NCBI GenBank assembly: GCA_037134875.1
Contig: JBAXLH010000001.1
Location: 106,646-170,645, forward strand
DNA: 64,000 bases
Direction: 5' to 3'
Origin: a bacterium
GTDB taxonomy: Bacteria > Patescibacteriota > Minisyncoccia > Phycocordibacterales > DATDWN01
In this document: positions 4,241-46,097 of the stretch, piece after piece
Position numbering within the stretch: the stretch's first letter is position 1
How the letters are laid out: each line of letters opens with the position of its first letter
Notes under the pieces: generated by a model
Told to the model about the DNA's origin: nothing
Databases searched by the model: none
What the model saw: the letters and a program-made list of their open reading frames with translations, nothing else
Program-made: the position numbers and the translations under genes

Positions 4241-5998
4241 ATGGAAAACAAAAATCTAGAGCTTGTTCGTCATTCCCTCTCACACCTTATGAGTATGGCG
4301 GTGCAAGAAATTTATCCGCAGGTTGGTCTCGGGGTTGGACCAGTTATTGAAAATGGTTTTTATCAGGACTATGACTTCCCCGAAGTCGTCACTCCGGAGC
4401 TTTTGCCAAAACTCGAAAAGAGAATGCGCGAACTCATCAAAGAAAACATAAAATTTGAGCAACACGATATAGATTTTGATACAGCTTTGAAACTCTACAA
4501 AAATGATCCATACAAAACAGAACTCATTAACGACCTCAAAACTGCTGGCGAGAAAAAAGTTAGCTTTTACAAATCCGGTGATTTTGATAACCTCTGCGCC
4601 GGTCCACACGTTGCCTCCACAAAAGAAATCAAACCAGACGCATTCAAGCTAACCCATATCGCCGGAGCATATTGGCGTGGCAATGAAAAAAATAAAATGC
4701 TTACTCGTATTTACGGTATTGCATTTGATTCAAAACAAGATTTGGAAGCGTATGAACTGCAACAAGAGGAGGCACGCAAACGCGACCACCGCATACTCGG
4801 CAAACAACTCGAGCTTTTTACATTTTCACCACTTGTTGGCTCGGGACTACCACTTTGGCTTCCCAAAGGTGCAACAGTTCGTCGTGTTATCGAGCGATTT
4901 ATTGTAGACACAGAACTCGAATGGGGATATTTGCATGTAAACACTCCTGACCTCGCCAAAATTGATCTCTACAAAACTTCCGGCCATTATCCATACTACA
5001 AAGAGTCAATGTATCCGCCAATCAAAATCGATGACGAGGAATTTATGCTCCGTCCGATGACATGCCCCCATCATTTTCAGATTTTTACTGACAAACCGAG
5101 AAGTTACAAAGAATTGCCAATGCGTATTGCCGAGCTGGCAAAACTATACAGATACGAAGCATCTGGCGAACTTACAGGACTTTTGCGTGTTCGAGGATTT
5201 TGTCTTGCCGACGCACATATTATTTGTGCCGACAGAGACCAAGCAAAAATGGAAGTGACTCAGGCACTCGACCTTATTGACTACGTTTCAAAAGTTTTTG
5301 GTCTCAAACAAGACATTGACTACTGGTACCGACTTTCAAAAGGCGACAGAAATGATGAGAAAAAATATTATAAAAATGACCAAGGCTGGGACGAGGGCGA
5401 ACAAGTGCTCCGAGAGGTTTTGCAAGAAAGAAAATGCAAGTTTTATGAAGCAGAAAATGAAGCCGCTTTTTATGGACCAAAAATTGATGTCCAAATGAGA
5501 GATGTGCGAGGAAAAGAAAATACTGCGTTTACCGTGCAATACGATTTCTGCCTACCAGATCGATTTGATTTGAAATATGTAAACAAAGAAGGTAAAGAAC
5601 AACGAGCACTCGTCGTGCACAGATCATCTGTCGGAGCTATCGAACGAGTGATGGCATTCCTCATCGAGCATTACGCCGGCAACTTCCCTCTCTGGCTCGC
5701 ACCAGTGCAAGTCAAAGTGATTCCTGTTCGAACAAACCACAACGAGTATGCAAAAAGGGTGTACGAGCTTTTGCGAAAAGCAGATGTGCGAGTGGAGTTT
5801 GATGATGCAGACTCAAACCTCGGTGGCAAAGTTCGTGACGCAAAAAATAACAAAATTCCATACTGGATTGTTATCGGAGACAAAGAAGTTGAAGCAAACG
5901 AAGTCACACTGGAGTCTCGTGACGCCGGACAAATCGGTAAAATGTCAGTCGATGATCTCACCAAAAAATTGACTGAAGAAATAAGAGAGAAAAAATAA
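4241..5998 (+). CDS. thrS: threonyl-tRNA synthetase, lacking N-terminal TGS domain
   Basis: Class II aaRS core plus C-terminal anticodon-binding domain. Editing-domain HxxxH motif (RHSLSHLMSMAV) sits at the N-terminus. 585 aa. Confidence 0.9.
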   Translation: MENKNLELVRHSLSHLMSMAVQEIYPQVGLGVGPVIENGFYQDYDFPEVVTPELLPKLEKRMRELIKENIKFEQHDIDFDTALKLYKNDPYKTELINDLKTAGEKKVSFYKSGDFDNLCAGPHVASTKEIKPDAFKLTHIAGAYWRGNEKNKMLTRIYGIAFDSKQDLEAYELQQEEARKRDHRILGKQLELFTFSPLVGSGLPLWLPKGATVRRVIERFIVDTELEWGYLHVNTPDLAKIDLYKTSGHYPYYKESMYPPIKIDDEEFMLRPMTCPHHFQIFTDKPRSYKELPMRIAELAKLYRYEASGELTGLLRVRGFCLADAHIICADRDQAKMEVTQALDLIDYVSKVFGLKQDIDYWYRLSKGDRNDEKKYYKNDQGWDEGEQVLREVLQERKCKFYEAENEAAFYGPKIDVQMRDVRGKENTAFTVQYDFCLPDRFDLKYVNKEGKEQRALVVHRSSVGAIERVMAFLIEHYAGNFPLWLAPVQVKVIPVRTNHNEYAKRVYELLRKADVRVEFDDADSNLGGKVRDAKNNKIPYWIVIGDKEVEANEVTLESRDAGQIGKMSVDDLTKKLTEEIREKK

Positions 5999-6139: not shown

Positions 6140-8272
6140 TTAGATGTCGAGAGTGGCAGTGTTGGCGTTTGACTGTATAAACGACTTTCTCGCCGGCACA
6201 TCCGTACCCATAAGCACATCAAAAACTTTGTCGGCAGCAACAGTATCCGCGATAGCGACTTGGAGCAAAATTCTGCGAGCCGGATCCATTGTTGTCTCCC
6301 AAAGTTCCTCGGCGTTCATTTCTCCGAGACCTTTGTATCGCTGAATAGAAATTTTGGATGTTTTTGGTTTGTCGTCTTTTTTGCCTTTTTTGTTTTCTGT
6401 TTCTTCCGATTCCTCGTCTTCGTCAGTAGCTTCTTCGCCACTTTCTACCTCGACAATCTCATCTTCTTTCACATCTTTTCCGACAATAGCAAACTTCTCT
6501 TCGTCTGAATATGCATAATGAACCTCCTTTCCTTTTTTGATTTTGAAAAGTGGTGGCTGTGCGATGTACACAAAACCTCCATCGATGAGCGGACGGAAAA
6601 ATCTATACAACAAAGTCAAAATGAGTGTGCGAATATGTGCGCCGTCCACGTCGGCATCTGTTGCAATAATTATTTTGTGATAGCGGAGTTTAGAAATATC
6701 AAACGTATCTCCGATCGCAGTGCCGAGAGCCACGACAAGATTTTTGATTTGCTCAGACTCGAGCATTCTATCGAGTCGCGCTCTCTCGATGTTGAGAATT
6801 TTTCCTCGCAAAGGAAGTATCGCCTGTGTACGTCGGTCACGACCGGTTTTTGCTGTACCTCCAGCAGAATCTCCCTCCACAATAAAGAGTTCTGACTCCT
6901 CTGCTGATTTGCTCTGACAGTCAGCAAGCTTGCCAGGAAGCGTCATTCCCTCGAGTGCACCTTTGCGGAGCACCGAATCCTTTGCGGCTTTTGCTGCCTT
7001 TCGAGCTTTGAGTGCGAGCACAACTTTGCCAATGATGGCCTTTGCGTCGTCAGGATTTTCTTCCAAAAAGTAATTGAACGCCTCTGAGAAAACAGAGTTT
7101 ACACTCGCCTGTGCCTCCACAGTTCCGAGTTTTGCTTTTGTTTGTCCTTCAAACTGAATTTCACGGAGCTTTACAGAGATAACGGCAGTAAGTCCTTCGA
7201 GCACATCCTCGCCAGTAAAATTGTCTTCACTTTCTTTTATCAGATTATTTTTTCGGCCATAGGCATTGAGTGTTCGTGTCAGAGCAGTTTTGAAACCAGT
7301 CACGTGTGTACCGCCTTCTGGGTTATAAATATTGTTTGCAAATGGCAAAATACGAGAAGAAATATCATCAACATATTGGAGCGAAACTTCGACTGACTCG
7401 TACTCGTTTGTCTTTTTTTCTATATAGAAAACATTTTTGTGAATTGGCTTGAGCGTACTGTTATAAAATTTGACGAGAGAGAGCAAGCCACCTTCGAAAT
7501 AAAATGACATTGATGGAATCTCCAAACCGAGCTCGGAAATTTTGAATACATCATCATCTTTTATTTTGCCAATATATTCACTCGCATCATTGACTGTAAT
7601 ATGCAAACCTTTGACGAGATATGCCTGCTGGCGAAGATGATCAACAACACGCTTGGCGTCAAATTTTATTTCTGGGAAAATCGCTGGGTCTGGCTCAAAT
7701 GTTACAATCGTGCCTGTGAGTTTTGTGCTACCGATTTTTTTGACCGCAGCTTTTTTCTTGCCTTGTGAATATTCCTGCATGTAAATACCACCCTCCTTGT
7801 GAACAACGACTTTACAATAAATAGAAAGTGCGTTGACCACAGATGCACCCACACCGTGGAGACCTCCGGAAACTTTGTATCCACCATCCTCACCACCAAA
7901 TTTTCCTCCAGCGTGGAGAGTAGTCATAATCGTTTCCAGAGCAGAAACTTTTGTTTGTTTGTGAATATCCACCGGAATACCTCGGCCGTTGTCTGTGACA
8001 CGAATGCGATTGTCTGGGAGCAGAGTCACTTCTATTTCGTCTGCAAAACCTCCCATCGCTTCATCGCGAGAGTTATCAAAAATTTCCCAAATGAGATGGT
8101 GGAGTCCGTCTGGACCAGTCGTACCAATGTACATTCCCGGTCGCTTTCGCACCGGTTCTAGTCCTTCCAAAATCTGGATTGCATCTGCACCATAACTGTC
8201 TTTCTTTGACTCGCCGTAGCCTTTGCCGGAGGCAGTTTTGGCCGTTTTTTCAGCCTTTTTTGATGTCGCCAT
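6140..8272 (-). CDS. gyrB: DNA gyrase subunit B
   Basis: GHKL ATPase motifs (HAGGKFGG...GLHGVGASVVNALS), Toprim region and QRYKGLGEM. Acidic insertion in the C-terminal part. Confidence 0.9.
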   Translation of the reverse strand: MATSKKAEKTAKTASGKGYGESKKDSYGADAIQILEGLEPVRKRPGMYIGTTGPDGLHHLIWEIFDNSRDEAMGGFADEIEVTLLPDNRIRVTDNGRGIPVDIHKQTKVSALETIMTTLHAGGKFGGEDGGYKVSGGLHGVGASVVNALSIYCKVVVHKEGGIYMQEYSQGKKKAAVKKIGSTKLTGTIVTFEPDPAIFPEIKFDAKRVVDHLRQQAYLVKGLHITVNDASEYIGKIKDDDVFKISELGLEIPSMSFYFEGGLLSLVKFYNSTLKPIHKNVFYIEKKTNEYESVEVSLQYVDDISSRILPFANNIYNPEGGTHVTGFKTALTRTLNAYGRKNNLIKESEDNFTGEDVLEGLTAVISVKLREIQFEGQTKAKLGTVEAQASVNSVFSEAFNYFLEENPDDAKAIIGKVVLALKARKAAKAAKDSVLRKGALEGMTLPGKLADCQSKSAEESELFIVEGDSAGGTAKTGRDRRTQAILPLRGKILNIERARLDRMLESEQIKNLVVALGTAIGDTFDISKLRYHKIIIATDADVDGAHIRTLILTLLYRFFRPLIDGGFVYIAQPPLFKIKKGKEVHYAYSDEEKFAIVGKDVKEDEIVEVESGEEATDEDEESEETENKKGKKDDKPKTSKISIQRYKGLGEMNAEELWETTMDPARRILLQVAIADTVAADKVFDVLMGTDVPARKSFIQSNANTATLDI

Positions 8273-10066: not shown

Positions 10067-10173
10067 TTCTGTTTATTTTATAATACTGCCGATAACGATC
10101 GGTGGTTTTTCTTTTTCCGGACAAACACCGCAAACCTTGAATTGTCGGCGAAATTGATTTACAATAAAAAATT

Positions 10174-11370
10174 ATGGACAATATATACAATTCTAGTGAT
10201 CTAGAACGCAAAGATTACAATGTTTCTCTCGGCGACGAAAAAAAGTTTTTAACCGAGCTTGCACAGAGGACAGATACAGAGGCACGCAGAATGGAGCGAT
10301 ACCTTGCGATGGCAGATCTCGCACGCACACAGGACAGCCCCCTTTCAGAAATCATAAACAAAGTTCTCGGTCTCCCAACATTCAAAAAATTCCACAACAT
10401 TCACATTCCGGAGATTGTACCCGCATCAGAGAGTTTTGATCTCTTTGACTTCCCTGCAAATCATCCCGCACGAAGCAAGTCAGACACATACTATGTAGAC
10501 GAAAAAAATATTTTGCGTACTCACACAACAGTGATGTGGTATTACTATTTCGGTCTGCCAGAAATCAAAGAGAAGCTCAAAGCGCGCAAACCTCTCGGTG
10601 TTGTTTCATACGGAAAAGTATATCGCAAGGACGAGATCGATCGCAGACATATGAACATCTTCCACCAGATCGACGGACTCTTTGTGTGCCCAAAAGATAT
10701 GCACACAATCACACAGCAAGACCTCAAAAATGTTTTGATCGAGGTTGCTCAGGGAGTATTCGGCGAAAAAATAAAATACAGATTTAATCCAGACACATTT
10801 CCATACACGTGGGATAGTTTGGAAATGGAAGTTGATAAAAACAGTTTGAATGATGAAAAGAAAGACGAGGAATGGGTAGAGGTGCTCGGCGCCGGTATTG
10901 TACAGCCGACAGTTTTGGAAAAGCTCGGTGTGGACTCATCTGTCTACAACGGCTGGGCATTCGGCTTTGGTCTCGAGCGACTTGCGATCATCAGTATGGA
11001 ACTCCCCGACATTCGCCTCCTTTGGTCACAAGATGAGAAGGTTAAAAAACAACTCAAAATGGGAAACAAGTTTGTGGAGGTTTCAAAATACCCAGCAATT
11101 GTTCGCGACATCTCTTTTGTGGTCAAAAATGACTTCATCCCAAACAACTATTTTGACCTTGTTCGTGATGTTGCCGGCGATCTCGCCGAAGAGGTTCTGC
11201 TACTAGACAAATACGAAAATACAGAAAAATTTGGAGCTGGAAATGTGAGCTATGCGTACCGAATCACATACAGATCTCTGGATCGCACACTGACTAGCGC
11301 CGAAATCGACGCTCTGCACAAAAAACTCGAGGAAATCACTGCCTCTACATACCAAGCCAAAATCCGCTAG
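10174..11370 (+). CDS. pheS: phenylalanyl-tRNA synthetase, single-chain mitochondrial-type (PheS catalytic core + C-terminal FDX-ACB anticodon-binding domain)
   Basis: Class II motifs FPANHPARSKSDTYY, LRTHTT, YRKDEIDRRHMNIFHQ, GWAFGFGLERLAI. C-terminal KYPAIVRDISFVV...YAYRITYRSLDRTLT matches FDX-ACB. No pheT adjacent. Confidence 0.8.
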   Translation: MDNIYNSSDLERKDYNVSLGDEKKFLTELAQRTDTEARRMERYLAMADLARTQDSPLSEIINKVLGLPTFKKFHNIHIPEIVPASESFDLFDFPANHPARSKSDTYYVDEKNILRTHTTVMWYYYFGLPEIKEKLKARKPLGVVSYGKVYRKDEIDRRHMNIFHQIDGLFVCPKDMHTITQQDLKNVLIEVAQGVFGEKIKYRFNPDTFPYTWDSLEMEVDKNSLNDEKKDEEWVEVLGAGIVQPTVLEKLGVDSSVYNGWAFGFGLERLAIISMELPDIRLLWSQDEKVKKQLKMGNKFVEVSKYPAIVRDISFVVKNDFIPNNYFDLVRDVAGDLAEEVLLLDKYENTEKFGAGNVSYAYRITYRSLDRTLTSAEIDALHKKLEEITASTYQAKIR

Positions 11371-11414: not shown

Positions 11415-12659
11415 ATGGAGTTACAAAATTACCCTCTGTATGTTTTTCTATTTCTCTCACTTTATTTTGAGGTTTTTTTGCTTATCACCTACTTTGAAAA
11501 GAGAGTTGACTTGAAGGAGGAAAATCTGCGATCCAAACGAGCTATCAGAAAATATCCAACGGTTACCATAATGGTTCCATGCTGGAATGAAGAAAAAACA
11601 CTTTCCAAAACAATCCATTCCCTTCTCAATTTAAACTACCCGAAAGACAAGCTAAAAATAATGATTATTGATGACGGCTCAACTGACAATACATGGAGTG
11701 TGGCACAAAAGTTTGCGGGCAAAAAACAAGTCGAACTATATCACAAAGAAAATGGTGGAAAATACACCGCACTCAACTTTGGACTTTCAAAAGTGACTTC
11801 TGATCTCGTTGGATGTCTCGATGCTGACTCGTATGTGGACAAAGATGCTCTCAAAAATATCGTCATTTATTTTGAAGACAAAGAGACAATGGCCGTAACT
11901 CCGAGCGTCAAAGTCTGGAAACCAAAAACAATCATCCAACTCATACAAAAAGTCGAATACGGCTGGGGAATTTTTGTTCGAAAACTTCTTTCATATATTG
12001 GCGCAATGTATGTCACTCCTGGACCATTTTCAATATTCAGACGTGAAGTTTTTGAAAACCTTGGAGGATACCGACATGCTCACCAGACCGAGGATATGGA
12101 ACTCGCCGTTCGTATGCAATCAAACCATTACAAAATAGTAAATTCTCACAACGCGGTCGTGTACACAGTTGCACCAAGTACATTTTGGAAACTCTACAAA
12201 CAGCGTCTGCGATGGACCAACGGCTTCATACACAATGTTGTCGACTACAAACATTTATTTTTCAAAAAAGAATATGGCAACCTCGGTGTATTTATTCTAC
12301 CCATGGCAACACTTTCTATTCTCTCTGCTATTTATGTACTCAGTGTCACGGTTATCAGTATCGTAACAAAAATAATAAATGAGATAATAAAAATCCGGAC
12401 AGTCGGTCTCGACTTTCACTTTGATGGATTTAGTTTTGACTGGTTTTATATAAATACACAAGTTATGGCAATCGGTTCTCTCGTCGCACTCTTGGGTACA
12501 ATTATTATCATACTGCTCTCCCGCAAAATGGCCGAGGGCAAAGTCAGATTTGGACTTGATTTGGTTTACTTTTTTGCGCTCTATGCCCTCATAGCTCCGA
12601 TTTGGATGGCAAAAGCACTTTATAATTCACTGTTTGCTGTTAAAACTACCTGGAGATAA
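11415..12659 (+). CDS. family-2 glycosyltransferase, processive membrane-embedded type
   Basis: DDGSTDNT (DxD-region) and QRLRWTNG (QxxRW). TM helices at both ends. Confidence 0.75.
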   Translation: MELQNYPLYVFLFLSLYFEVFLLITYFEKRVDLKEENLRSKRAIRKYPTVTIMVPCWNEEKTLSKTIHSLLNLNYPKDKLKIMIIDDGSTDNTWSVAQKFAGKKQVELYHKENGGKYTALNFGLSKVTSDLVGCLDADSYVDKDALKNIVIYFEDKETMAVTPSVKVWKPKTIIQLIQKVEYGWGIFVRKLLSYIGAMYVTPGPFSIFRREVFENLGGYRHAHQTEDMELAVRMQSNHYKIVNSHNAVVYTVAPSTFWKLYKQRLRWTNGFIHNVVDYKHLFFKKEYGNLGVFILPMATLSILSAIYVLSVTVISIVTKIINEIIKIRTVGLDFHFDGFSFDWFYINTQVMAIGSLVALLGTIIIILLSRKMAEGKVRFGLDLVYFFALYALIAPIWMAKALYNSLFAVKTTWR

Positions 12660-24801: not shown

Positions 24802-25395
24802 CTACTTTGAGAGAGATTGAATATCTGCGCGAGCCTTTGTGATATCGTCAGTGACCTTCTGCTCATCTGCACGTAACTTAGTAGTTGTTACTTCTTTGAT
24901 CTGCCAACTAACTGCGTCGCCAGCCCAGAGACAGATATCGCTTGCCGCGTTATTGATATCCTCATTCCAATTACCGAGCGCATCGGGTGAAGTGCCGGAG
25001 TATAAGTTATCGGCTTCTTGATAGGCACTCATTGCGTTAGTGCCCGGATCATTCTTGAGGCAGGTATTGGTGCGGAATGAACCGAGCTGGCTTGCGGCCG
25101 AACTTGGATCGTTAAGCGCTTTCAGACCTGCGTTCGCATCTGCGTACTGCGTTGTGCCGAGCACAGTCTTGGCAGAGCTTAATAACGACACGTAGTGGTC
25201 GGTGCTTGCCGAAAGAATTGCAGCAACCTTTTGCTTATCTGGAGCAGACGATGTCGCGACTACTACAGGATTTTGCACGGGCGCACTTTCCTGTGCCTGC
25301 TTGATAGGCTGCGGCGTATTTAGACCAATTATAAGTAACAAAACAAAACCGAGAACAACTACTCCGACAACGGAGTAGAGAACTTTTTTAGCCAT
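24802..25395 (-). CDS. hypothetical secreted/membrane-anchored protein
   Basis: N-terminal TM helix VLYSVVGVVVLGFVLLLIIGL. GC-rich island cargo. Confidence 0.45.
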   Translation of the reverse strand: MAKKVLYSVVGVVVLGFVLLLIIGLNTPQPIKQAQESAPVQNPVVVATSSAPDKQKVAAILSASTDHYVSLLSSAKTVLGTTQYADANAGLKALNDPSSAASQLGSFRTNTCLKNDPGTNAMSAYQEADNLYSGTSPDALGNWNEDINNAASDICLWAGDAVSWQIKEVTTTKLRADEQKVTDDITKARADIQSLSK

Positions 25396-25560
25396 AAAAT
25401 CTAGCGGGATTTTAGATGGTGGGAACCCTCAGGTAATCAAAAGGCTCCTCGCCATTGCGATGAGAACCTTTCGGCCCCCACCCATACCGGTTTCCCGATA
25501 TGACCCGCTAGAGTGACTCTGACGAGGAGTCCTTTGATCTCTAGCGGGATTTGCAACCAT
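25396..25560 (-). promoter_or_regulatory. candidate structured 5' leader with triplicated 9-nt motif (mutually exclusive helices)
   Basis: tctagcggg at 25400-25408 and 25540-25548; its complement cccgctaga at 25505-25513. GC-rich nested helices between (ggtggg/cccacc, gggaacc/ggtttccc). The proximal motif abuts the start codon at 25395. Confidence 0.3.
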
Positions 25561-25698
25561 ATCCTAAGAATTTGACTTCCTAGGGGTTAGGTCGGCTTAT
25601 ATTCAATTGTGCAAGTACATGATAGCAGAAATTGCTATCGTTTGACCACCTTAGCTTAGCTTTGAGAGCTTGCAAAGTAGGTTATCTACTCCTCAATT

Positions 25699-26268
25699 TT
25701 AATGAAAAGTGACACCGCTCTTTTTGAGCTCATTACGTACCTCAGCATAGTTCGGAATAGTCTGTGATACGAGTTTCCAAAACTTCTTTGAATGATTAAA
25801 TTCTTTTAGGTGGCAGAGCTCGTGGACAATTATGTAATCAGATAGAGGCTTTGGTAAAAGTGCGATTTTATAGTTGAAATTAAGGTTACCTTTTCGAGAA
25901 CAGCTACCCCAACGCGTCTTCTGATTTTTGATATTGATCCGATTGAAATTAAACTCCCGTTTCTGATTGAAGTAGTTAACTCGATTTACTGCCAGTTTAT
26001 ATGCCTCGTCTTTGTACTTGAGGTAGTCCTCTTGGCTATACCTCGCAATTGCCTTACCCTTGAACTGCTTGAAAAAAGCAATTTTTGAGAAAAGCCATTC
26101 ACTTTTCTCATTAATGAATTTGTCGACAATGGTTTCTTTGAGATCAAAAGGGGTCGTGACCACAATGCTCCCATCACAGTACACAGCAAGGCGCATTCTT
26201 CGTGCCCGATGACTTTTTCGGAGAGTATAGGTAACTTGTTTATTTTCAAGTGCTATATGTTTCTTCAT
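25699..26268 (-). CDS. YgjP-like (DUF45) metal-dependent hydrolase
   Basis: WGSC...HELCHLKEFNHSKKFW (HExxH in DUF45 context). Immediately downstream of hsdR. Confidence 0.7.
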   Translation of the reverse strand: MKKHIALENKQVTYTLRKSHRARRMRLAVYCDGSIVVTTPFDLKETIVDKFINEKSEWLFSKIAFFKQFKGKAIARYSQEDYLKYKDEAYKLAVNRVNYFNQKREFNFNRINIKNQKTRWGSCSRKGNLNFNYKIALLPKPLSDYIIVHELCHLKEFNHSKKFWKLVSQTIPNYAEVRNELKKSGVTFH

Positions 26269-26270
26269 GG

Positions 26271-29177
26271 TTAGAATTTTTTGACCACAATATCGACCAG
26301 ACGGTTGAGATATTTATGAAAGTCGTCAACCTTAATTTTTTCTCTATATTCTTTAAGTACCAACTCTTGAACAATGCGCTTTACTTCTTTCAAGAATTCA
26401 TCACGTTTCGAGGACTCTTGCCAACCCTCATCGAGCACATCCTCAAGTCGTGCTGTCATATCCTTTATGAAGTCCCTGATCACGTCTTTATCTCCCGTGA
26501 TAAATTCCTCAGAGATAACAAACAGGCCATATTCATTGAGGGAATACCCGAGCTCCTTAGCCTCGTCTCCTTTTTTCTTTATATCTTCAAGAAGCCCTTG
26601 GTATCGCTTGATACGTTCCGATAAATCAATTTGATTTTGTTCAAACTCTTTCCTGATTGCTGAAAGTCGTTCACTAAACTTTTTATACGCAGGATTAGTA
26701 TCGACATTTATAGAGATTTCCTGCTTAAGCATTTTCTCAAGATTGAGAGCTTTCTCCTCATCATCCATCTTATTAAGACGCTCCATAACGTAAAGGTCGT
26801 TGACATTAAGCTCACGGAAATTCTTAGTGATGCCTTCGTAGTCCACACGTTGCTGGATAAGAAGTTTAACTTTCTCGCCAAACTCAGCAAGAAGTTCTGC
26901 ATCAGTTGTTCTCGCTCCGTATTCTTTGTCAAACGCAATATAAACACTGGCAAGCCACTCAAATGCTCGGATATGTGTTTTCAGGAAGGGGTCTGGCGAG
27001 AGTACCTCAAACAAAAGCTTAAGACGGGCATATTTTTCACGGAAAAACTTCTGCTTGTCTGTATTCTCCGCAAAAATCTTCAAACAGCGGCGCAGGTTTT
27101 CAATTGAAGGATCTTCAATATTTACACCCACGAATACATCCATAATTTCGTCAAGTACGTCGACGAATTCTTCTTTGAGTTTATCGATATTGATCATCGC
27201 AGAATCAACCACACTCTCGTCAAAATTGAGTGCCTTGTGAAGACTCTTGGTAATGCCGTAATAGTCAATTACTTTTCCAGCACCCTTGTTTGGATACACG
27301 CGGTTTGTGCGTGCGATTGCTTGTAGAAGATTATGATCCCAAAGCGGCTTGTCGAGGTACATCACCTGTTCAATTGGGGCATCAAAGCCAGTGAGAAGCA
27401 TGTCGCAGACAAGCAAGAATTTGAGCGGACTATTTGGATCCTTGAATTCATTTATGAGCTTTTCTCGCTTAGCTTTAGTCGTATTGTATTTCTGAAGGTC
27501 CTCAGCACTTGTGTTGGGATCGCCAGCAGAATAGATAACCGCAGACCACTCTTTCGGAATTAACTCATCCAGTATTTCTTTGTATTTTGCCGTCGCTTCA
27601 CGGTCATAGCAGACAACTTGAGCCTTGAAACCAGCAGGCTCTACATAAAGCTTAAAGTGCTCGACTATATCTTGAGCAACAGCACGCATACGCTTATCGA
27701 GTTTAACGATTGCTTCTTTCTTTCCATATTTCTTTGCAACTTGATCCTTCTCTTTATCTGAGAGTCCTTGGGTCAATTCTTCAAACTGCTTGTCTATTTT
27801 CTCCTCATCAATAAAGAATTTTGAGAGTCTAGCCTCATAGGTAACAGGGAGTGTGGCTCCGTCTTCTACGGCTTGCTGAATAGAATAATAATCCAAGTAA
27901 CGTTCGCCCTCCTCGCCGAAGTTACGATGAGTATTAAGTGTTGCCTTATCGATAGGAGTACCGGTAAAGCCAAAGAAGAACGCGTTCTTTAAGGAACTGC
28001 GGAGATTAATTGCCGAAACGCCTTCATTATCTCTATGTGCCTCGTCTGAAAGTACGATAATGTTCTCGTCGAGGTTTTCTGTTGTATTTCCAAGTTCAGA
28101 GAATTTCTGGATTGTAGAAATGAAGATTCCTCTCTCGGAAGACTTTATCTTCTTCTCAAGATCTTGACGCGAATCCACACGAACGACGTTCTTGCCACCA
28201 CAATTTACGAAAGTCTCGTAAATCTGATCATCAAGATCTATACGATCCACTAAGATAAAAATCTTTGGGTTTTTGAGCGCCTTATCAAAGCGTAGCTTCC
28301 AAGCCGTAAAGAACATGGTGAGCGATTTGCCCGACCCTTGAGTATGCCAAATGAGCCCACGCTTCTGGTCACCTCCAGCAACTCGCTCAACAATCTTGTT
28401 TGTTGCTCTAAGTTGCTGGTATCGTGCAATTTTCTTTACAGTGCGCTCCTTTTCTTTTTCAAAAAGAATAAAATTCCTGACTATATCGAGAAGCCTCTCT
28501 TTTGAGAGTAGGGCTGTAAGCGTCATTTCCAACTCTCCCCCTGTTTGTTTTTGAAGCTCTTCATCACGCCAACGTAGAAAGTACTGCGCAGGTGCGTAAG
28601 TAGCTCCGTAGACGGTTTGAAGGCCATCTGTAGCTATGTTGAAGCAGTTAGGCCAAAACAATTTAAAAGCATTTCGCTCATATCGCTTTATCTGTCCAAC
28701 AGCATTGGAATAGTTCACGCTGCTTGCTGCAGTAGGGCTCTTTGCCTCTATATCTACCAAAGGCAAACCATTCAGGAAGACCATTATGTCTGGGCGGATA
28801 TTCTCGGAGTTTCCCTCGAAGTAGAACTGATTGGTAGCGACAAACTGGTTGTTATCGGTTGTCTCAAAATCAACGACGTAGTAGTCGCGCATCTTGCCAG
28901 TCTGAGAATCTTTCAAGTTCACACCATCACGAAGCATTTTAAGAAATGCCTCGTTATTATCTATTTTCTTCACCTCTCGGACAATAGAAATAGCCTCATC
29001 TTCCTGTATTCCGTTAATTCGCTTAACGGCCTCAAGAAGTAGCGGAGTGATAATGTATTCGTTCTCAAACTCACGGAGCTTCGAAAACTCCTGCGATTTG
29101 ATGTATTTGTAACCAAGCTTCTCCTGGAGAAACTTAATGACGTGATTTTCTACTGTGTGTTGTTCGTTGAATTTCAT
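26271..29177 (-). CDS. hsdR: Type I restriction enzyme R subunit
   Basis: 968 aa. SF2 helicase motifs including the DEAH box (VLSDEAHRDNEG). N-terminal nuclease region. Confidence 0.9.
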   Translation of the reverse strand: MKFNEQHTVENHVIKFLQEKLGYKYIKSQEFSKLREFENEYIITPLLLEAVKRINGIQEDEAISIVREVKKIDNNEAFLKMLRDGVNLKDSQTGKMRDYYVVDFETTDNNQFVATNQFYFEGNSENIRPDIMVFLNGLPLVDIEAKSPTAASSVNYSNAVGQIKRYERNAFKLFWPNCFNIATDGLQTVYGATYAPAQYFLRWRDEELQKQTGGELEMTLTALLSKERLLDIVRNFILFEKEKERTVKKIARYQQLRATNKIVERVAGGDQKRGLIWHTQGSGKSLTMFFTAWKLRFDKALKNPKIFILVDRIDLDDQIYETFVNCGGKNVVRVDSRQDLEKKIKSSERGIFISTIQKFSELGNTTENLDENIIVLSDEAHRDNEGVSAINLRSSLKNAFFFGFTGTPIDKATLNTHRNFGEEGERYLDYYSIQQAVEDGATLPVTYEARLSKFFIDEEKIDKQFEELTQGLSDKEKDQVAKKYGKKEAIVKLDKRMRAVAQDIVEHFKLYVEPAGFKAQVVCYDREATAKYKEILDELIPKEWSAVIYSAGDPNTSAEDLQKYNTTKAKREKLINEFKDPNSPLKFLLVCDMLLTGFDAPIEQVMYLDKPLWDHNLLQAIARTNRVYPNKGAGKVIDYYGITKSLHKALNFDESVVDSAMINIDKLKEEFVDVLDEIMDVFVGVNIEDPSIENLRRCLKIFAENTDKQKFFREKYARLKLLFEVLSPDPFLKTHIRAFEWLASVYIAFDKEYGARTTDAELLAEFGEKVKLLIQQRVDYEGITKNFRELNVNDLYVMERLNKMDDEEKALNLEKMLKQEISINVDTNPAYKKFSERLSAIRKEFEQNQIDLSERIKRYQGLLEDIKKKGDEAKELGYSLNEYGLFVISEEFITGDKDVIRDFIKDMTARLEDVLDEGWQESSKRDEFLKEVKRIVQELVLKEYREKIKVDDFHKYLNRLVDIVVKKF

Positions 29178-30409
29178 ATGGTTCTTTTCTTACCGGTCAG
29201 TAGATCTTGCATGAGGCCTTTTTTGAGAAGAGATAATTTTGATTTCAGTTCCTGATTAGTCGCAATCCTTTCTTCAATCGAAGAAAGGATGCTAGCAATT
29301 TTTTTCTGCTCCTGTATGGACGGAACAGGGACTTTATAACTTTTCATATAAGAAAGATTCAAGTGTGAGATATGCCCCTGAATTCCACCACTACGCAGTA
29401 ATTCATATTGGCTTTTCAAAAAAAGCCATAGATACTCGGAATCAATTTCTGTATTCGGTTCAATAGCAGCGGCGTTTTGTGTTGTGCATGCCTCGATTTT
29501 AAGGAGTGCAGTCTGTCCCCGTGTCTTTCCTTGACCATACATTGCAACAAGGATCGTTCCTGGCTGATATCTTTTTAGCCGATAGTCCTGAACTGCTTTA
29601 TCAGAAATATGCACCTCTGCCCGTTCAATTTTCTTATTTACAATCTCTCCCGTTTTGATAAAAGGATTATTGCCTTCGTAATACTCTTTTTTGCCTGTAG
29701 ACGGCGTGGTGCCGGTTGAGATAGTAGCTAGTTCTTCTAAATTTCTAAAAACAAATTTGGTTTTACCTGTTCCACTAGTAAAGAGATCTTTCATTAGCCC
29801 GCGCTTGAGTTTATCTGTCGCTTCAATAACTTCCTGTGTTTTTGCAATATCCTTATCAACTGTTCCCAAAATCTCTGCAATTTTCTGCTGTTCTTTTTTT
29901 GATTCCGGAATCAAGACTTGAATGGATTCAAATTTGCCTTTTGAAATAGTGTAGCGCGTTGCACCAACAGACGCTTTTTCAAATTGTCTAAGTACATCTC
30001 TAGCATTACAAAAATACGCTCGAAAATTAATGTCGATCTTATTGTCGTACTCCTCGTTAAATCTCAGTCGCGCCAAATGATAACTAAAGAGAGTATTCGG
30101 CAAATCCTTAGCCACTACAGCTGAGTGGCCAATATCATCAGGCGTTTCAGAAGAGGGGGTGAATAACATATCTCCAACCCTGACCTGTGCTACCTTAATT
30201 TCACTATCGCTGGCAGTCACTTCCATAAAATTAATGGAGTCATCAATAAATCCATGCTTGTAGACATCCATGTAGTTAACGAGCCTCACAGGCTTTTCGT
30301 CCCGCGCTATCTTTTTATCCACTCCACCGGTCTTAAACTCTCCCAAATCTGAAAGGTTTTTTATAACCCAACCACGCGGAATATTCTGTTGTTTCGTGTT
30401 AGTTGTCAT
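29174..30409 (-). CDS. hsdS: Type I R-M specificity subunit (two target-recognition domains)
   Basis: 411 aa, duplicated TRD architecture with conserved central/C-terminal helices. 4-nt overlap with hsdR. Confidence 0.8.
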   Translation of the reverse strand: MTTNTKQQNIPRGWVIKNLSDLGEFKTGGVDKKIARDEKPVRLVNYMDVYKHGFIDDSINFMEVTASDSEIKVAQVRVGDMLFTPSSETPDDIGHSAVVAKDLPNTLFSYHLARLRFNEEYDNKIDINFRAYFCNARDVLRQFEKASVGATRYTISKGKFESIQVLIPESKKEQQKIAEILGTVDKDIAKTQEVIEATDKLKRGLMKDLFTSGTGKTKFVFRNLEELATISTGTTPSTGKKEYYEGNNPFIKTGEIVNKKIERAEVHISDKAVQDYRLKRYQPGTILVAMYGQGKTRGQTALLKIEACTTQNAAAIEPNTEIDSEYLWLFLKSQYELLRSGGIQGHISHLNLSYMKSYKVPVPSIQEQKKIASILSSIEERIATNQELKSKLSLLKKGLMQDLLTGKKRTI

Positions 30410-31229
30410 CTCGTTTTTCTACGGCAATTTCTTGCTGAATTTGCTGCAATTGTTTTTTGACCATCGCGTCCTTTTCATTCTTTTTTGCTTCTTCTATTTT
30501 CTGATCGAGAATCAATTCAATAGAGAGTTTGATAGGCGCAAAATATCGTAAACATTCTTCTTCAGTTAATTCGTGTACACCCTTGCTCAAAATAGAGTAG
30601 ACACCTTTCATTTCCACAAGTTGGCTAGGGAGAAAAGTTTTCAATGTCTCAACCTTATCCAGCATTCTTTGTTTTTTGAAATCGATTTCGCTTATTTTAG
30701 TAGCGCCAGCATTGTTCGTGTATGTTTCAAGAATTAATTTCTCAAAAATCCTTCTGAGATAAACAAAAGAGCCGGCACCAGCCCCATGGGAAACCAGTCC
30801 AATTGCCTTTTTGAGATTTTTTAGGTCCTCAACTGGCAAAACCTTGTCATACTTCTTACCAATCTCTGCGAACTGTAAATCTGCTAACGATGGCCATTGT
30901 CCTATCTTCATGACGATTTCTCTATTTCGAAAAACTATAAAGCGTATTACATCGTTATCCTTCCGCTTACACTTCAAGGTAATGAGAAAGAACCCAACAT
31001 CAACACTATTACCTTTTTCTGCTGACCAATCGCTCCATGTATCGGTTGAATCAATGCTGATGGAATAGGTCGTTTCCGTACTATTCTTTGCGCTATACGC
31101 ATCCACGTCACCGCCGAAGGCATTTTTTTCTAGCTCACTAATTGACACAACCTCGTATAAAGGAGTTTCAAAATAGAAATCGTGTTTGCTCATTATTTTA
31201 GCCTCTCCCAACTGTAGTTCGTTAGCCAT
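30399..31229 (-). CDS. hypothetical protein embedded between hsdM and hsdS
   Basis: 276-aa ORF overlapping hsdS by 11 nt. No catalytic motif recognised. C-terminal half helical (VSHGAGAGSFVYLRRIFEKLI...). Confidence 0.5.
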   Translation of the reverse strand: MANELQLGEAKIMSKHDFYFETPLYEVVSISELEKNAFGGDVDAYSAKNSTETTYSISIDSTDTWSDWSAEKGNSVDVGFFLITLKCKRKDNDVIRFIVFRNREIVMKIGQWPSLADLQFAEIGKKYDKVLPVEDLKNLKKAIGLVSHGAGAGSFVYLRRIFEKLILETYTNNAGATKISEIDFKKQRMLDKVETLKTFLPSQLVEMKGVYSILSKGVHELTEEECLRYFAPIKLSIELILDQKIEEAKKNEKDAMVKKQLQQIQQEIAVEKRDDN

Positions 31230-31233
31230 AAAT

Positions 31234-40537: not shown

Positions 40538-40548
40538 ATGATCCCGCA
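40475..40548 (-). tRNA. tRNA-Gln (anticodon CUG)
   Basis: Cloverleaf read by hand. Acceptor UGCGGGA/UCCCGCA, D-arm with GG, anticodon stem CGCGA/UCGUG, loop CUCUGAA, T-arm CUUGG-UUCGAAU-CCAAG. CCA encoded. Confidence 0.8.
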
Positions 40549-45129: not shown

Positions 45130-46024
45130 TTATTTGATATCTTTTTCAGCTTCAATAAATTCATCAAGCTCTCCGGCCAAAATCTTGTCCACATTGCCGG
45201 TCTCGACGCCTGTGCGATGATCCTTTACTAGTTTGTATGGATGAAGCACATACGAGCGGATCTGATTCCCCCATTCAATCTGAGTCGTTTTTGAGACGTA
45301 CATACCCTTTTCCTTGGCCACCCTATCCTCCTCAAGCGCTTTGTAGATTTTACCCTTGAGAATCTTGAGCGCAGTCTCTTTATTTTGAGCCTGAGAGCGC
45401 TCCGTTTCGCTGGCCGCCGAAATGTTGGTTGGAATGTGCACAACGCGCACAGCGGTCTCACGCTTGTTTACGTTTTGTCCACCCGGGCCGGATGAGCGCG
45501 AGGTCTCCACACGGATTTCGTCCTCGGGAATTTCAAAATCTGTTACTTTTTCAAATTCCGGAATAACCTCCACCATCGAAAACGATGTGTGACGTTTTGC
45601 ATTTGCATTGAATGGCGAAATACGTACAAGTCGGTGCACACCAGACTCGTTTTTGAGCGTACCATATGCCTGCTTGCCTTTTATTTCGATAGTAATATTT
45701 CGAAACCCACCATGATCGTTTTGATTTTGATGCACAATCGTGACAGCAAAATTTTTTCGCTCGCAAAATTTGAGATACATATCCAAAAGTATTCCAGAAA
45801 AATCCTCGGCGTCGTCTCCACCCGCACCAGAAAAAATAGTCATAAGCGCGTTGCCTTTGTCGTATTTTCCCACACCTTCAATTTCAACTTTCAAGTCTGC
45901 AATTCTACGAATAGTTGCTTGCGCCTTGTCCTTGTCCACCCAAAAATCCGCCGATATCATTTCGGCTTCAAGCACTTCGAGTTCTTTTTTTAAATCTTCT
46001 ATATTTTTTTCCATAATGAGCCAA
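45130..46024 (-). CDS. prfB: peptide chain release factor 2 (N-terminally short, no frameshift site)
   Basis: SPF motif (RISPFNANAKR) and GGQ (SGPGGQNVNK). The supplied ORF's N-terminal extension runs through a tRNA gene; start taken at MEKNIEDL. Confidence 0.8.
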
Positions 46025-46097
46025 AGGAGAGAATCGGACTCTCGTTCCTGCTTTACGAAAGCAGTGTTCTGCCACTGAACTACTTTGGCATAATAAA

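What the first reader, a model, noticed from the sequence alone, without database searches (positions are those of the whole stretch)
10174..11370. Single-chain, mitochondrial-type phenylalanyl-tRNA synthetase (catalytic alpha core + FDX-ACB anticodon-binding domain) in a bacterium
The 398-aa protein has all PheS class II motifs. Its C-terminal ~100 aa (KYPAIVRDISFVV...DLVRDVAGDLAEEVLLLDKY...YAYRITYRSLDRTLT) match the ferredoxin-fold anticodon-binding domain. That domain normally sits at the end of bacterial PheT or in monomeric mitochondrial PheRS. Long collinear stretches match human mitochondrial FARS2: LRTHT, YRxDxIDxxHxxIFHQ, W(L/V)EVLG, GWAFGxGLERLAxI...PDIRL(F/L)W, and the whole FDX-ACB block. 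No pheT lies downstream; the next gene is a glycosyltransferase. The organism may therefore use a monomeric PheRS without a beta subunit or editing domain. That architecture is classically regarded as organellar, so this is either an unusual bacterial lineage trait or a horizontal transfer.
Basis: partly seen in the sequence, partly recalled or inferred. Interest (0 to 1): 0.7.

Follow-up and report, generated by a model that had tools for sequence, protein, structure and literature searches.

The report
Single-chain PheRS in Patescibacteria bacteria
This gene encodes a one-piece phenylalanyl-tRNA synthetase built like the human mitochondrial enzyme; it is a conserved core gene of a large group of ultra-small (CPR/Patescibacteria) bacteria, which probably charge tRNA-Phe without the usual beta subunit and its proofreading domain.

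Summary
ORF 10174-11370 (+) encodes 398 aa with a PheS class II core (PF01409, 1e-56) fused to an FDX-ACB anticodon-binding domain (PF03147, 2e-20). Its best solved relative is human mitochondrial PheRS, by sequence (E 2e-55) and by fold (AlphaFold pLDDT 91, TM 0.75 to 3CMQ/5MGH). The gene is no chimera and no recent transfer. The identical protein lies on 7 independent contigs. Intact orthologues occur in at least 80 Patescibacteria (Paceibacteria/Parcubacteria) species genomes, in a conserved housekeeping neighbourhood (gyrB, thrS), with dN/dS of 0.01-0.08 and all catalytic residues kept. No PheT core or editing domain occurs in the window or in 1.28 Mb of related loci. In a published marker table for CPR genomes, 17 of 99 near-complete genomes have FDX-ACB but no B5 domain, and 16 of these also lack the PheS N-terminal domain. 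A rough tree places the bacterial proteins as sister to the mitochondrial and giant-virus enzymes, not inside them. The protein is therefore most likely the sole, editing-free PheRS of this lineage. Three things remain unproven: absence of pheT from this particular genome, the monomeric state, and the enzymatic activity. I found no paper describing this.

The parts
10174..11370 (+). Gene for a single-chain phenylalanyl-tRNA synthetase (398 aa plus stop)
   Evidence: ORF list. Pfam finds PF01409 plus PF03147. The exact protein is in public databases as NCBI MAG locus WCK48_00580, named 'hypothetical protein'. The same protein lies on 7 independent contigs.
10174..10320 (+). N-terminal helical region (aa 1-49) that continues into the core. 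It aligns with part of the bacterial PheS N-terminal region and not with human FARS2.
   Evidence: The TIGR00468 pheS profile aligns from residue 19, whereas the human mtPheRS alignment starts at residue 65. The AlphaFold model has helices at 20-31, 35-45 and 56-65. PF02912 was not detected.
10321..11052 (+). Class II (IIc) catalytic core, PheS type (aa 50-293)
   Evidence: PF01409, E 1e-56. Active-site residues are conserved across the family.
10612..10677 (+). Motif 2 region, GKVYRKDEIDRRHMNIFHQIDG (aa 147-168)
   Evidence: R151, D153, H159, F163, H164, Q165 and G168 are invariant in 30 family members and shared with canonical PheS and FARS2. Position 167 is Asp where canonical PheS has Glu.
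10951..10986 (+). Motif 3 region, GWAFGFGLERLA (aa 260-271), including A262, the Phe-pocket alanine
   Evidence: G260, W261, A262, F263, G264, G266, E268, R269 and A271 are invariant and are compared across clades.
11083..11367 (+). C-terminal ferredoxin-fold anticodon-binding domain (FDX-ACB, aa 304-398)
   Evidence: PF03147, E 2.1e-20, covering profile positions 1-94 of 94. It matches the C-terminus of TIGR00472 pheT_bact, positions 691-798, and human mtPheRS residues ~300-405.
10137..10165 (+). Promoter-like site TTGAAT-17 nt-TACAAT, ending 8 nt before the ATG. No Shine-Dalgarno sequence is visible.
   Evidence: Consensus scan and direct reading of the sequence. This is a pattern match only; function is not shown.
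10085..10116 (+). Terminator-like hairpin plus T-run that closes the upstream histidine-phosphatase gene, so the PheRS gene looks like a separate transcription unit
   Evidence: Consensus scan. Pattern match only.
6140..8272 (-). gyrB, the conserved neighbour of the gene
   Evidence: A GyrB homologue lies within a few genes of the PheRS gene in 59 of 81 loci.
4241..5998 (+). thrS (threonyl-tRNA synthetase), a recurrent neighbour
   Evidence: Pfam finds tRNA-synt_2b, HGTP_anticodon and tRNA_SAD. It is a neighbour in 28 of 81 loci.

Best explanation
The gene encodes the housekeeping phenylalanyl-tRNA synthetase of a Patescibacteria (Paceibacteria/Parcubacteria) bacterium, in a single-chain form. 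One polypeptide carries the PheS-type class II catalytic core, which activates Phe with ATP and transfers it to tRNA-Phe. It also carries, at its C-terminus, the ferredoxin-fold domain that in ordinary bacteria sits at the end of the beta subunit PheT and reads the GAA anticodon. By analogy with human mitochondrial PheRS, the anticodon-binding domain packs against the core in a closed resting state and must swing open on a hinge to bind tRNA. The protein has no B3/B4 editing domain, so mischarged Tyr-tRNA-Phe cannot be proofread in cis. Shown here: the architecture, the predicted fold, conservation of the active site, wide vertical distribution, purifying selection, the housekeeping gene context, and the absence of PheT from all DNA examined. 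Inferred: that it is the only PheRS in this genome, that it works as a monomer, that it is specific for Phe, and that it undergoes the open/closed movement.
For: Architecture and similarity: PF01409 plus PF03147. Human mtPheRS is the best PDB match by sequence (E 2e-55 against 3e-35 for bacterial PheS) and by fold. The AlphaFold2 model has pLDDT 90.9 and pTM 0.86. Foldseek places 5mgh/3cmq first over the full length (TM 0.75, rmsd ~3 A over ~400 columns, E 1e-33), while the open tRNA-bound form 3tup gives TM 0.55 and bacterial PheS matches only the core. Function retained: motif 2 (R151, D153, H159, F163, H164, Q165), FP(Y)T 209-212, E217, E236, G239/G241, and motif 3 (A262, G264, G266, E268, R269) are invariant in the family and shared with canonical PheS and FARS2. 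dN/dS is 0.01-0.08 in informative pairs. Core, vertically inherited gene: thousands of homologues, all PF01409 plus PF03147 and ~380-400 aa, from Patescibacteria. Intact ORFs are present in 80 species-representative genomes named Zambryski-, Taylor-, Nomura-, Yanofsky-, Wolfe- and Doudnabacteria, Paceibacterota and Minisyncoccia. The neighbourhood is conserved and housekeeping: gyrB in 59 of 81 loci, thrS in 28, plus rpsB, tsf, prfA, rpmE, nusG, rplK and rplA. The gene's G+C content matches that of the window. No beta subunit: tblastn with a Pfam-validated E. coli PheT found no B3_4, B5 or CLM segment in the window plus 80 loci, 1.28 Mb in total, and the large ORFs of the window are other proteins. 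Genome-wide support: in the anvi'o/Brown et al. CPR single-copy-gene table (PMC8672522, Additional file 1, first 178 genomes), 17 of 99 near-complete genomes have FDX-ACB but no B5. Of these 17, 16 also lack Phe_tRNA-synt_N, against 53 of 74 B5-positive genomes that have it (Fisher p = 6e-7). The 17 share a distinct marker profile (no enolase, RBFA and PNPase present), which indicates a coherent lineage and not random gaps. Not an artefact: the identical protein lies on 7 contigs from independent assemblies.
Against: The complete genome of this organism could not be searched; only 64 kb of a 175 kb contig was available. The marker table is anonymised, so its FDX-ACB-positive, B5-negative genomes cannot be tied by name to this lineage, and HMM sensitivity in CPR genomes is imperfect (19 of 99 near-complete genomes show B5 without FDX-ACB). 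At least one Paceibacteria genome (PMX_810) has canonical pheS and pheT, so the trait is not universal in the class and co-occurrence cannot be excluded by taxonomy alone. The protein reaches no NCBIfam curated cut-off, and its nominal best hit is the 'PheS-related mystery ligase SrmL' model (229.1 bits against a cut-off of 300), about equal to pheS_mito (227.7 against 258.35). Two pocket positions differ from the canonical enzyme throughout the clade: Glu to Asp at 167 and Phe to Tyr at 211. No tRNA-Phe gene was available for checking identity elements. No biochemical data exist.
Confidence: 0.8

Rival explanations
1. The protein is a paralogous PheS-related ligase of another function, like NCBI's 'mystery ligase' SrmL, and it coexists with a canonical PheS/PheT encoded elsewhere in the genome.
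For: The nominal top NCBIfam hit is NF051887 SrmL (229.1 bits; 250-253 bits for relatives P0109 and P0120). A related single-chain protein in an Oligoflexia MAG sits among non-housekeeping genes. Some Paceibacteria do have canonical pheST. The whole genome of this organism was not searched.
Against: All scores lie below the SrmL cut-off of 300 and are about equal to the pheS_mito scores. The gene context is housekeeping and conserved across 81 loci. The active site is fully conserved and purifying selection is very strong. A coherent set of near-complete CPR genomes has FDX-ACB but neither B5 nor the PheS N-terminal domain. No PheT segment occurs in 1.28 Mb of DNA.
Confidence: 0.1
2. The protein is the housekeeping PheRS but does not act as a lone monomer. 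It works as a homodimer, or together with a separate tRNA-binding partner, for example the PheT-B2-like OB-fold protein encoded directly upstream in some relatives.
For: In 19 of 80 related loci, a 120-163 aa ORF lies 0-98 nt upstream of the PheRS gene or overlaps its start, on the same strand. This ORF matches the PheT B2/tRNA_bind region best (TIGR00472 positions 41-149, 104 bits, above YtpR at 81 bits). Almost all class II synthetases are dimers. The protein also keeps N-terminal helices that align with the bacterial PheS N-terminal region.
Against: No such ORF lies next to the gene in this window, elsewhere in its 64 kb, or in the other 61 loci. The full-length model superposes on monomeric human mtPheRS. 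Oligomeric state cannot be assessed with the available tools.
Confidence: 0.08
3. The gene is a recent horizontal acquisition from a eukaryote (FARS2) or from a giant virus.
For: The closest characterised relative is eukaryotic. Giant-virus-like contigs carry single-chain PheRS genes that pass the mitochondrial model's cut-off, in agreement with PMC11304981.
Against: In a neighbour-joining tree rooted on canonical PheS, the bacterial proteins form their own clade (77% bootstrap), sister to the eukaryote-plus-virus clade (85%), and are not nested within it. Identity to human FARS2 is only ~31%. Synteny is conserved across at least 80 species. Base composition is native. The protein lacks both the FARS2 insertion and a presequence.
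Confidence: 0.02
4. The ORF is an assembly chimera, or a decaying fusion of pheS with the 3' end of pheT.
For: None beyond the domain composition itself.
Against: The same protein lies on 7 contigs from independent assemblies. The ORF is intact, at 353-514 aa, in 81 of 81 loci. dN/dS is far below 1. The AlphaFold model is confident throughout.
Confidence: 0.005

Closest known systems
Mitochondrial phenylalanyl-tRNA synthetase (human FARS2, yeast MSF1; PDB 3CMQ closed form, 3TUP tRNA-bound open form; 'PheRS-M' in AARS Online, PMC11580382)
   Same: Both have a single chain of ~400 aa with the PheS class II core followed by a C-terminal FDX-ACB domain, and neither has a B3/B4 editing domain. Sequence similarity is collinear (E 2e-55, ~31% identity). 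The full-length fold matches the closed form (TM 0.75).
   Different: This protein is bacterial and chromosomal, and probably serves cytoplasmic translation. It scores below the TIGR00469 equivalog cut-off (227.7 against 258.35). It falls in a sister clade, not within the eukaryotic clade. It has no presequence and lacks the eukaryotic insertion between motif 2 and the FPF strand. Its N-terminal helices align with bacterial PheS. Throughout the clade, position 167 is Asp where human has Glu, and position 211 is Tyr where human has Phe.
Canonical bacterial PheRS, the (alpha-beta)2 enzyme PheS plus PheT (e.g. T. thermophilus 1PYS, E. coli 3PCO)
   Same: The catalytic core and active-site residues are the same. 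The FDX-ACB domain is homologous to the B8 domain at the C-terminus of PheT.
   Different: The FDX-ACB domain is fused directly to the alpha-type core. B1, B3/B4 (editing), B5 and the B6/7 catalytic-like module are absent, no PF02912 coiled coil is detected, and no adjacent pheT is present.
NCBIfam NF051887 'PheS-related mystery ligase SrmL'
   Same: The two-domain layout is the same: the 349-position profile aligns over residues 72-386. It is the nominal best NCBIfam hit.
   Different: The score of 229 bits lies below the curated cut-off of 300. None of the 10 diverse relatives tested reached the cut-off either. I could not recover any true SrmL member to compare its context or taxonomy. The name implies an unknown function in genomes that already have a PheRS, whereas this gene behaves as a housekeeping gene.
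Nucleocytovirus (giant-virus) PheRS, grouped with organellar PheRS in PMC11304981
   Same: These are single-chain proteins with the core plus FDX-ACB, ~345-370 aa.
   Different: The viral proteins pass the mitochondrial equivalog cut-off (260-331 bits) and cluster with eukaryotes. The Patescibacteria proteins do neither.
Stand-alone tRNA-binding OB-fold proteins (Trbp111/CsaA/YtpR, TapR; the B2 domain of PheT)
   Same: The ORF found upstream of the PheRS gene in 19 related loci belongs to this fold and is most similar to the PheT B2 domain.
   Different: No such ORF is present next to the gene in this window. Operon linkage of such a protein to a single-chain PheRS has not, to my knowledge, been described. 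Its role is untested.

Membership tests
Class II aminoacyl-tRNA synthetase, subclass IIc, PheS-type core (Pfam PF01409) | Profile match above the curated cut-off | tested here: met
   192.6 bits against a cut-off of 19.8; residues 50-293 cover profile positions 12-245 of 246.
Class II aminoacyl-tRNA synthetase, subclass IIc, PheS-type core (Pfam PF01409) | Motif 2 Arg, motif 3 Arg, and the Phe-pocket residues (FPF/T and GxAxGxG) | tested here: met
   R151, R269, F209-P210-Y211-T212 and G260..A262..G264..G266 are invariant in the family. Two changes are conservative: E167D and F211Y.
FDX-ACB anticodon-binding domain (Pfam PF03147) | Full-length profile match above the cut-off | tested here: met
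   73.4 bits against a cut-off of 31.1; profile positions 1-94 of 94 at residues 304-398.
Single-chain (mitochondrial-type) PheRS, PheRS-M / TIGR00469 pheS_mito | Architecture: one chain with core plus C-terminal FDX-ACB and no editing or B-domains | tested here: met
   No other domain is detected in the 398 aa.
Single-chain (mitochondrial-type) PheRS, PheRS-M / TIGR00469 pheS_mito | Equivalog score at or above the curated cut-off (258.35 bits) | tested here: not met
   227.7 bits. Relatives score 233-249 bits.
Single-chain (mitochondrial-type) PheRS, PheRS-M / TIGR00469 pheS_mito | Three-dimensional fold and domain packing of 3CMQ | tested here: met
   The AlphaFold model (pLDDT 90.9) matches 5mgh/3cmq with TM 0.75 and E 1e-33 over ~400 columns. 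This compares a prediction with a crystal structure.
Single-chain (mitochondrial-type) PheRS, PheRS-M / TIGR00469 pheS_mito | Phylogenetic placement inside the organellar clade | tested here: not met
   The neighbour-joining tree places it in a bacterial clade (77%) sister to the eukaryote-plus-virus clade (85%). The method is rough.
Single-chain (mitochondrial-type) PheRS, PheRS-M / TIGR00469 pheS_mito | Active as a monomer and charges tRNA-Phe | not testable with these tools
   This needs biochemistry.
Single-chain (mitochondrial-type) PheRS, PheRS-M / TIGR00469 pheS_mito | It is the only PheRS of its compartment or cell (no alpha/beta enzyme alongside) | tested here: inconclusive
   No PheT is found in the window or in 1.28 Mb of related loci. 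The CPR marker table shows a lineage with FDX-ACB but without B5 or the PheS N-terminal domain. The complete genome of this organism was not available.
Canonical bacterial PheS (TIGR00468) | Equivalog score at or above 237.45 bits | tested here: not met
   173.9 bits.
Canonical bacterial PheS (TIGR00468) | N-terminal coiled-coil domain PF02912, and a partner pheT gene (usually adjacent) | tested here: not met
   PF02912 is not reported. The downstream gene is a GT2 glycosyltransferase. No PheT segment occurs in the window.
NCBIfam NF051887 SrmL (PheS-related mystery ligase) | Equivalog score at or above 300 bits | tested here: not met
   229.1 bits. The 13 relatives tested score 194-274 bits.

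The most novel reading that the evidence does not exclude
The single-chain PheRS is not a eukaryotic or organellar invention but an old bacterial design. On this reading, a whole radiation of bacteria (many Paceibacteria, the UGA-recoded Gracilibacteria/Absconditabacteria, and scattered others) uses it as its only PheRS and so translates Phe codons with no PheRS editing. The mitochondrial FARS2 and giant-virus PheRS lineages would then descend from such a bacterial single-chain ancestor, and not from a fusion made after the mitochondrial endosymbiosis. In one subclade, a separately encoded PheT-B2-like OB-fold protein would serve as a trans-acting tRNA-binding cofactor.
Probability: 0.3. Interest if true: 0.75.

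Novelty: new variant of a known kind. Interest (0 to 1): 0.6.

Why it matters
Reviews describe three forms of PheRS: the bacterial (alpha-beta)2 enzyme, the archaeal/eukaryotic cytosolic (alpha-beta)2 enzyme, and a monomer confined to mitochondria (e.g. PMC3275996; AARS Online PMC11580382 lists PheRS-M only with FARS2). If a large bacterial lineage uses the single-chain form as its housekeeping enzyme, several things follow. (1) The textbook distribution needs amending. (2) The origin of mitochondrial PheRS becomes testable with real bacterial outgroups. (3) These bacteria become a natural case of translation without PheRS proofreading against Tyr and m-Tyr, which fits CPR genome minimalism. 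(4) pheT is unsuitable as a universal marker, and its use causes systematic 'missing marker' and 'hypothetical protein' calls: NCBI names this protein hypothetical, and pheT-derived domains (B5, FDX-ACB) and the PheS N-terminal domain are among the single-copy markers of the table used. (5) A compact ~45 kDa bacterial PheRS could be useful for engineering.

Tried and rejected
Literature. Nine full-text searches combined monomeric or mitochondrial-type PheRS with bacteria, Patescibacteria, CPR, Parcubacteria, pheS/pheT, SrmL, FARS2, FDX-ACB and aaRS evolution. None found a paper describing a bacterial or CPR single-chain PheRS. Mukai 2017 notes only that many CPR PheT proteins lack the B2 domain. 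Meheust 2019 notes only that PheS and PheT cluster together.

Whole-genome check for pheT. No tool returns whole genomes. I tried supplementary gene tables instead. The tables of Kuroda 2024 show canonical pheST in Paceibacteria PMX_810. The supplements of the Minisyncoccus and Parcunitrobacter papers held nothing relevant. Tsurumaki 2022 does not mention synthetases. The anonymised anvi'o CPR marker table was the only genome-wide evidence found.

tRNA-Phe identity elements. No tRNA-Phe gene is present in the window or in 60 related loci.

SrmL. I could not recover a true member. All 13 diverse relatives tested score below 300 bits, so its taxonomy and context remain unknown.

Naming of representatives. 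The listing of cluster members returned almost no names for the representative proteins. Only an Oligoflexia MAG and Salpingoeca could be labelled, so the clade labels in the tree rest on few anchors.

Regulatory RNA. Rfam finds no leader, T-box or other RNA near the gene.

Rejected readings. The chimera/pseudogene reading and the recent-transfer-from-eukaryotes reading were both rejected (see the rival explanations).
Full report
1. THE OBSERVATION

Pfam finds the PheS-type class II core (PF01409) at residues 50-293 with E 1e-56. [quoted passage not shown]

Against all PDB sequences, the best matches are the human mitochondrial PheRS entries (8p8x, 5mgu, 3cmq and others), at E 2-5e-55 and collinear over both domains. 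Bacterial PheS alpha chains follow at E 3e-35 and cover only the core. PheT beta chains match only the last ~100 residues.

The next gene downstream (11415-12659) is a family-2 glycosyltransferase. The other large ORFs of the window are DnaE, ThrRS, GyrB, a type I restriction-modification system, a serine recombinase, CTP synthase and a DUF2339 membrane protein. None is a PheT.

2. THE ORGANISM AND THE SPREAD OF THE GENE

The exact protein is in public databases as 'MAG: hypothetical protein WCK48_00580 [bacterium]', on a 175 kb contig. The 120 best homologues are all ~355-450 aa with the same two Pfam domains, and the ones that carry names come from Patescibacteria (Paceibacterota, Zambryskibacteria, Minisyncoccia, Parcubacteria).

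A scan of one genome per GTDB species, using six peptide patterns from this protein, confirmed 101 relatives. The 80 loci kept are all Patescibacteria-type MAGs with 54-77% identity, including Taylor-, Nomura-, Yanofsky-, Wolfe- and Doudnabacteria. The ORF is intact in all 81 loci. The identical protein occurs on 7 contigs from independent assemblies, always in the same arrangement. This excludes a chimera or pseudogene.

The neighbourhood is housekeeping and conserved. gyrB lies within a few genes in 59 of 81 loci and thrS in 28. rpsB, tsf, prfA, rpmE, nusG, rplK/rplA and dnaE recur. The gene's base composition matches that of the window. Synonymous sites are saturated between the window gene and its nearest relatives, while only ~17% of non-synonymous sites differ. 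In closer pairs, dN/dS is 0.01-0.08. The gene is therefore an old, vertically inherited core gene under strong constraint, and not a recent transfer.

3. IS IT A WORKING PheRS?

Thirty family members share 62% mean column identity. The invariant positions include motif 2 (GKVYRxDEIDRxHMNxFHQ), the FPYT strand that lines the phenylalanine pocket, E217, E236, GxG 239-241, and motif 3 (GWAFGxGxERxA).

Compared clade by clade with canonical PheS and with the eukaryote/virus proteins, every catalytic position is kept. There are two conservative, clade-wide substitutions: Asp for Glu at 167 (also seen in 21 of 68 proteins of the eukaryote/virus clade) and Tyr for Phe at 211. The assignment of functional roles to these positions rests on established PheRS structural knowledge (T. 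thermophilus and human mtPheRS structures), not on a test made here.

An AlphaFold2 model built on the 30-sequence alignment is confident (pLDDT 90.9, pTM 0.86). Foldseek against the PDB puts human mtPheRS first over the whole length (5mgh/3cmq, TM 0.75, rmsd ~3 A, ~400 columns, E 1e-33). The tRNA-bound open form 3tup gives TM 0.55, and bacterial PheS chains match only the core. The model thus reproduces the closed domain packing of the mitochondrial enzyme.

4. IS IT THE ONLY PheRS?

This is the crux, and it could be addressed only indirectly, because no tool returns a whole genome.

tblastn with this sequence against the window plus the 80 loci (1.28 Mb) found no B3_4, B5 or catalytic-like-module segment. 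It hit only the FDX-ACB ends of the single-chain genes and a B2-like ORF described in section 6.

(b) Additional file 1 of PMC8672522 reproduces the anvi'o single-copy-gene table for the Brown et al. CPR genomes. It lists B5 and FDX-ACB (both PheT domains) and Phe_tRNA-synt_N (the PheS N-terminal domain) for each genome. I analysed the first 178 genomes. Among the 99 that carry at least 85% of 22 common markers, 17 have FDX-ACB without B5. Of these 17, 16 also lack Phe_tRNA-synt_N, whereas 53 of 74 B5-positive genomes have it (Fisher p = 6e-7). The 17 also share a distinct profile: enolase is absent in ~82%, RBFA is present in 82%, and PNPase in 53% against 12%. This is the pattern expected of a coherent lineage with the single-chain enzyme and no PheS/PheT, and it is not what random assembly gaps would produce. 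The weaknesses are that the table is anonymised and that HMM sensitivity in CPR genomes is imperfect.

(c) Counter-example: a Paceibacteria genome in the supplement of Kuroda et al. 2024 (PMX_810) has adjacent canonical pheS (1062 nt) and pheT (2046 nt, with B3_4, B5, CLM and FDX-ACB). The trait therefore belongs to part of the class, not all of it.

I put the probability that this is the sole housekeeping PheRS of the organism at ~0.8.

5. RELATION TO KNOWN FAMILIES

No NCBIfam equivalog cut-off is reached:
- SrmL 'PheS-related mystery ligase': 229.1 bits against a cut-off of 300.
- pheS_mito: 227.7 against 258.35.
- Bacterial pheS: 173.9 against 237.45.

This explains why NCBI calls the protein hypothetical.

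An exhaustive HMMER search of 1.84 billion cluster representatives found 213 clusters at E below 1e-30. The Paceibacteria family collapses into essentially one full-length representative (P0121). Beyond it lie several other groups:
- Proteins with in-frame UGA at invariant Gly positions. In L083 there are 13 TGA codons, five of them aligned to invariant Gly, which points to code-25 Gracilibacteria/Absconditabacteria.
- An Oligoflexia MAG protein in a non-housekeeping context.
- Many ~350 aa proteins that pass the mitochondrial cut-off. One of these sits on a 252 kb contig full of ORFans, ankyrin-repeat proteins and TK, which looks like a giant virus. This agrees with PMC11304981.
- Longer eukaryotic proteins, for example from Salpingoeca.

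I built a neighbour-joining tree with 100 bootstraps from 80 single-chain proteins, rooted on 8 canonical PheS cores. The single-chain proteins are monophyletic (96%). They split into a bacterial clade containing the Paceibacteria, the code-25 lineages and the Oligoflexia protein (77%), and a eukaryote-plus-virus clade (85%). The method is crude and few tips are labelled. Even so, it argues against a recent eukaryote-to-CPR transfer, and it leaves open that the fused architecture predates mitochondria.

6. MECHANISM

Shown here:
- One chain carries the catalytic core and the anticodon-binding domain.
- There is no editing domain.
- The predicted packing is the closed form.
- The gene appears to be its own transcription unit. 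A terminator-like hairpin at 10085-10106 ends the upstream gene. A TTGAAT-17-TACAAT promoter-like site ends 8 nt before the ATG, with no Shine-Dalgarno sequence and no Rfam leader.

Inferred by analogy with human mtPheRS:
- The enzyme works as a monomer.
- The anticodon-binding domain swings away from the core to bind the GAA anticodon while the acceptor end enters the active site.
- Fidelity against Tyr rests on the synthetic site alone.

One variation is worth recording. In 19 of the 80 related loci, a 120-163 aa ORF lies 0-98 nt upstream of the PheRS gene or overlaps its start, on the same strand. It is most similar to the PheT B2/tRNA_bind domain (104 bits to TIGR00472 positions 41-149, against 81 bits to YtpR). 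It may supply tRNA affinity in trans. This ORF is absent from the window.

7. NOVELTY AND VERDICT

The sequences are public, and some pipelines already label them 'phenylalanine--tRNA ligase'. The architecture is that of a known enzyme. What appears to be undescribed is that this is the housekeeping PheRS of a major bacterial lineage. It forms a bacterial sister clade to the mitochondrial enzyme and probably replaces PheS/PheT and their editing function. Nine literature searches found no such report, and AARS Online (PMC11580382) lists PheRS-M only with FARS2.

I classify it as a new variant of a known kind, with interest 0.6. The finding is solid and mildly surprising to specialists. It also gives a concrete handle on the origin of mitochondrial PheRS and on editing-free translation in minimal bacteria.

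Noticed in passing
L016 8691-9083, L017 9624-10016, L019 9574-9972, L046 9562-9978, L062 8671-9099 and 14 further loci (L020, L021, L024, L026, L029, L031, L033, L034, L037, L039, L042, L048, L070, L072): A 120-163 aa ORF with a PheT-B2-like tRNA_bind OB fold lies immediately upstream of the single-chain PheRS gene on the same strand (gap from -20 to +98 nt). Its best NCBIfam match is pheT_bact positions 41-149 (104 bits), above YtpR and TapR. This looks like an operon, and the ORF could be a trans-acting tRNA-binding partner. It is absent from the window.
   Followed up: partly
L083 8001-9371 (same gene in L084 154-1524): A 456 aa single-chain PheRS homologue (P0127) contains 13 in-frame TGA codons, five of them aligned to invariant Gly positions. 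This indicates genetic code 25, so Gracilibacteria/Absconditabacteria-type CPR bacteria also carry the single-chain enzyme. The gene lies next to an ATP synthase operon.
   Followed up: partly
L081 10001-11083: A 360 aa single-chain PheRS (P0156) passes the mitochondrial equivalog cut-off (331 bits). It sits on a 252 kb contig of mostly ORFans with ankyrin-repeat proteins, thymidine kinase and a C1 peptidase, which looks like a giant virus. This is consistent with published reports of nucleocytovirus PheRS.
   Followed up: partly
L082 10001-11245: An Oligoflexia MAG (MBX7144632.1, named 'hypothetical protein') encodes a 414 aa single-chain PheRS-like protein among non-housekeeping genes (a beta-lactamase-like protein, enolase-superfamily proteins, a peptidase). 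It may be an SrmL-like paralogue and not a housekeeping enzyme.
   Followed up: no
window 25462-25593 (-): A LOOT RNA (Rfam RF03000) matches at 70.5 bits against a gathering score of 46.4. It lies between ORFs 24802-25395 and 25699-26268.
   Followed up: no
window 26271-32979 (-) and 38999-40548: The window carries a type I restriction-modification system: HsdR at 26271-29177, two ORFs at 29174-31229, and HsdM with an N-terminal MerR/HTH domain at 31234-32979. A large serine recombinase follows at 38999-40537, and its 3' end overlaps a tRNA-Gln gene on the opposite strand (40475-40548). G+C varies locally between 0.37 and 0.48. This may be an integrated mobile element.
   Followed up: no
window 10137-10176: The -10-like hexamer TACAAT ends 8 nt before the ATG of the PheRS gene, and no Shine-Dalgarno sequence is visible. 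The mRNA may be leaderless or nearly so.
   Followed up: no
L032 5134-5259: A second short fragment similar to the last 42 residues of the FDX-ACB domain (55% identity, E 3e-7) lies ~1 kb downstream of the intact gene. It is probably a duplicated remnant.
   Followed up: no
window 4241-5998 (+): The ThrRS is short, at 585 aa. Pfam reports tRNA_SAD, the class II core and the HGTP anticodon domain, but no N-terminal TGS domain.
   Followed up: no
L001, L003-L012 and many other loci, ~1-4 kb downstream of the PheRS gene: A tRNA-Thr(UGU) gene on the opposite strand recurs downstream of the PheRS gene in many loci. This adds to the evidence for conserved synteny. The window instead has tRNA-Thr(CGU) and tRNA-Thr(GGU) far away, at 46018-46173.
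   Followed up: no
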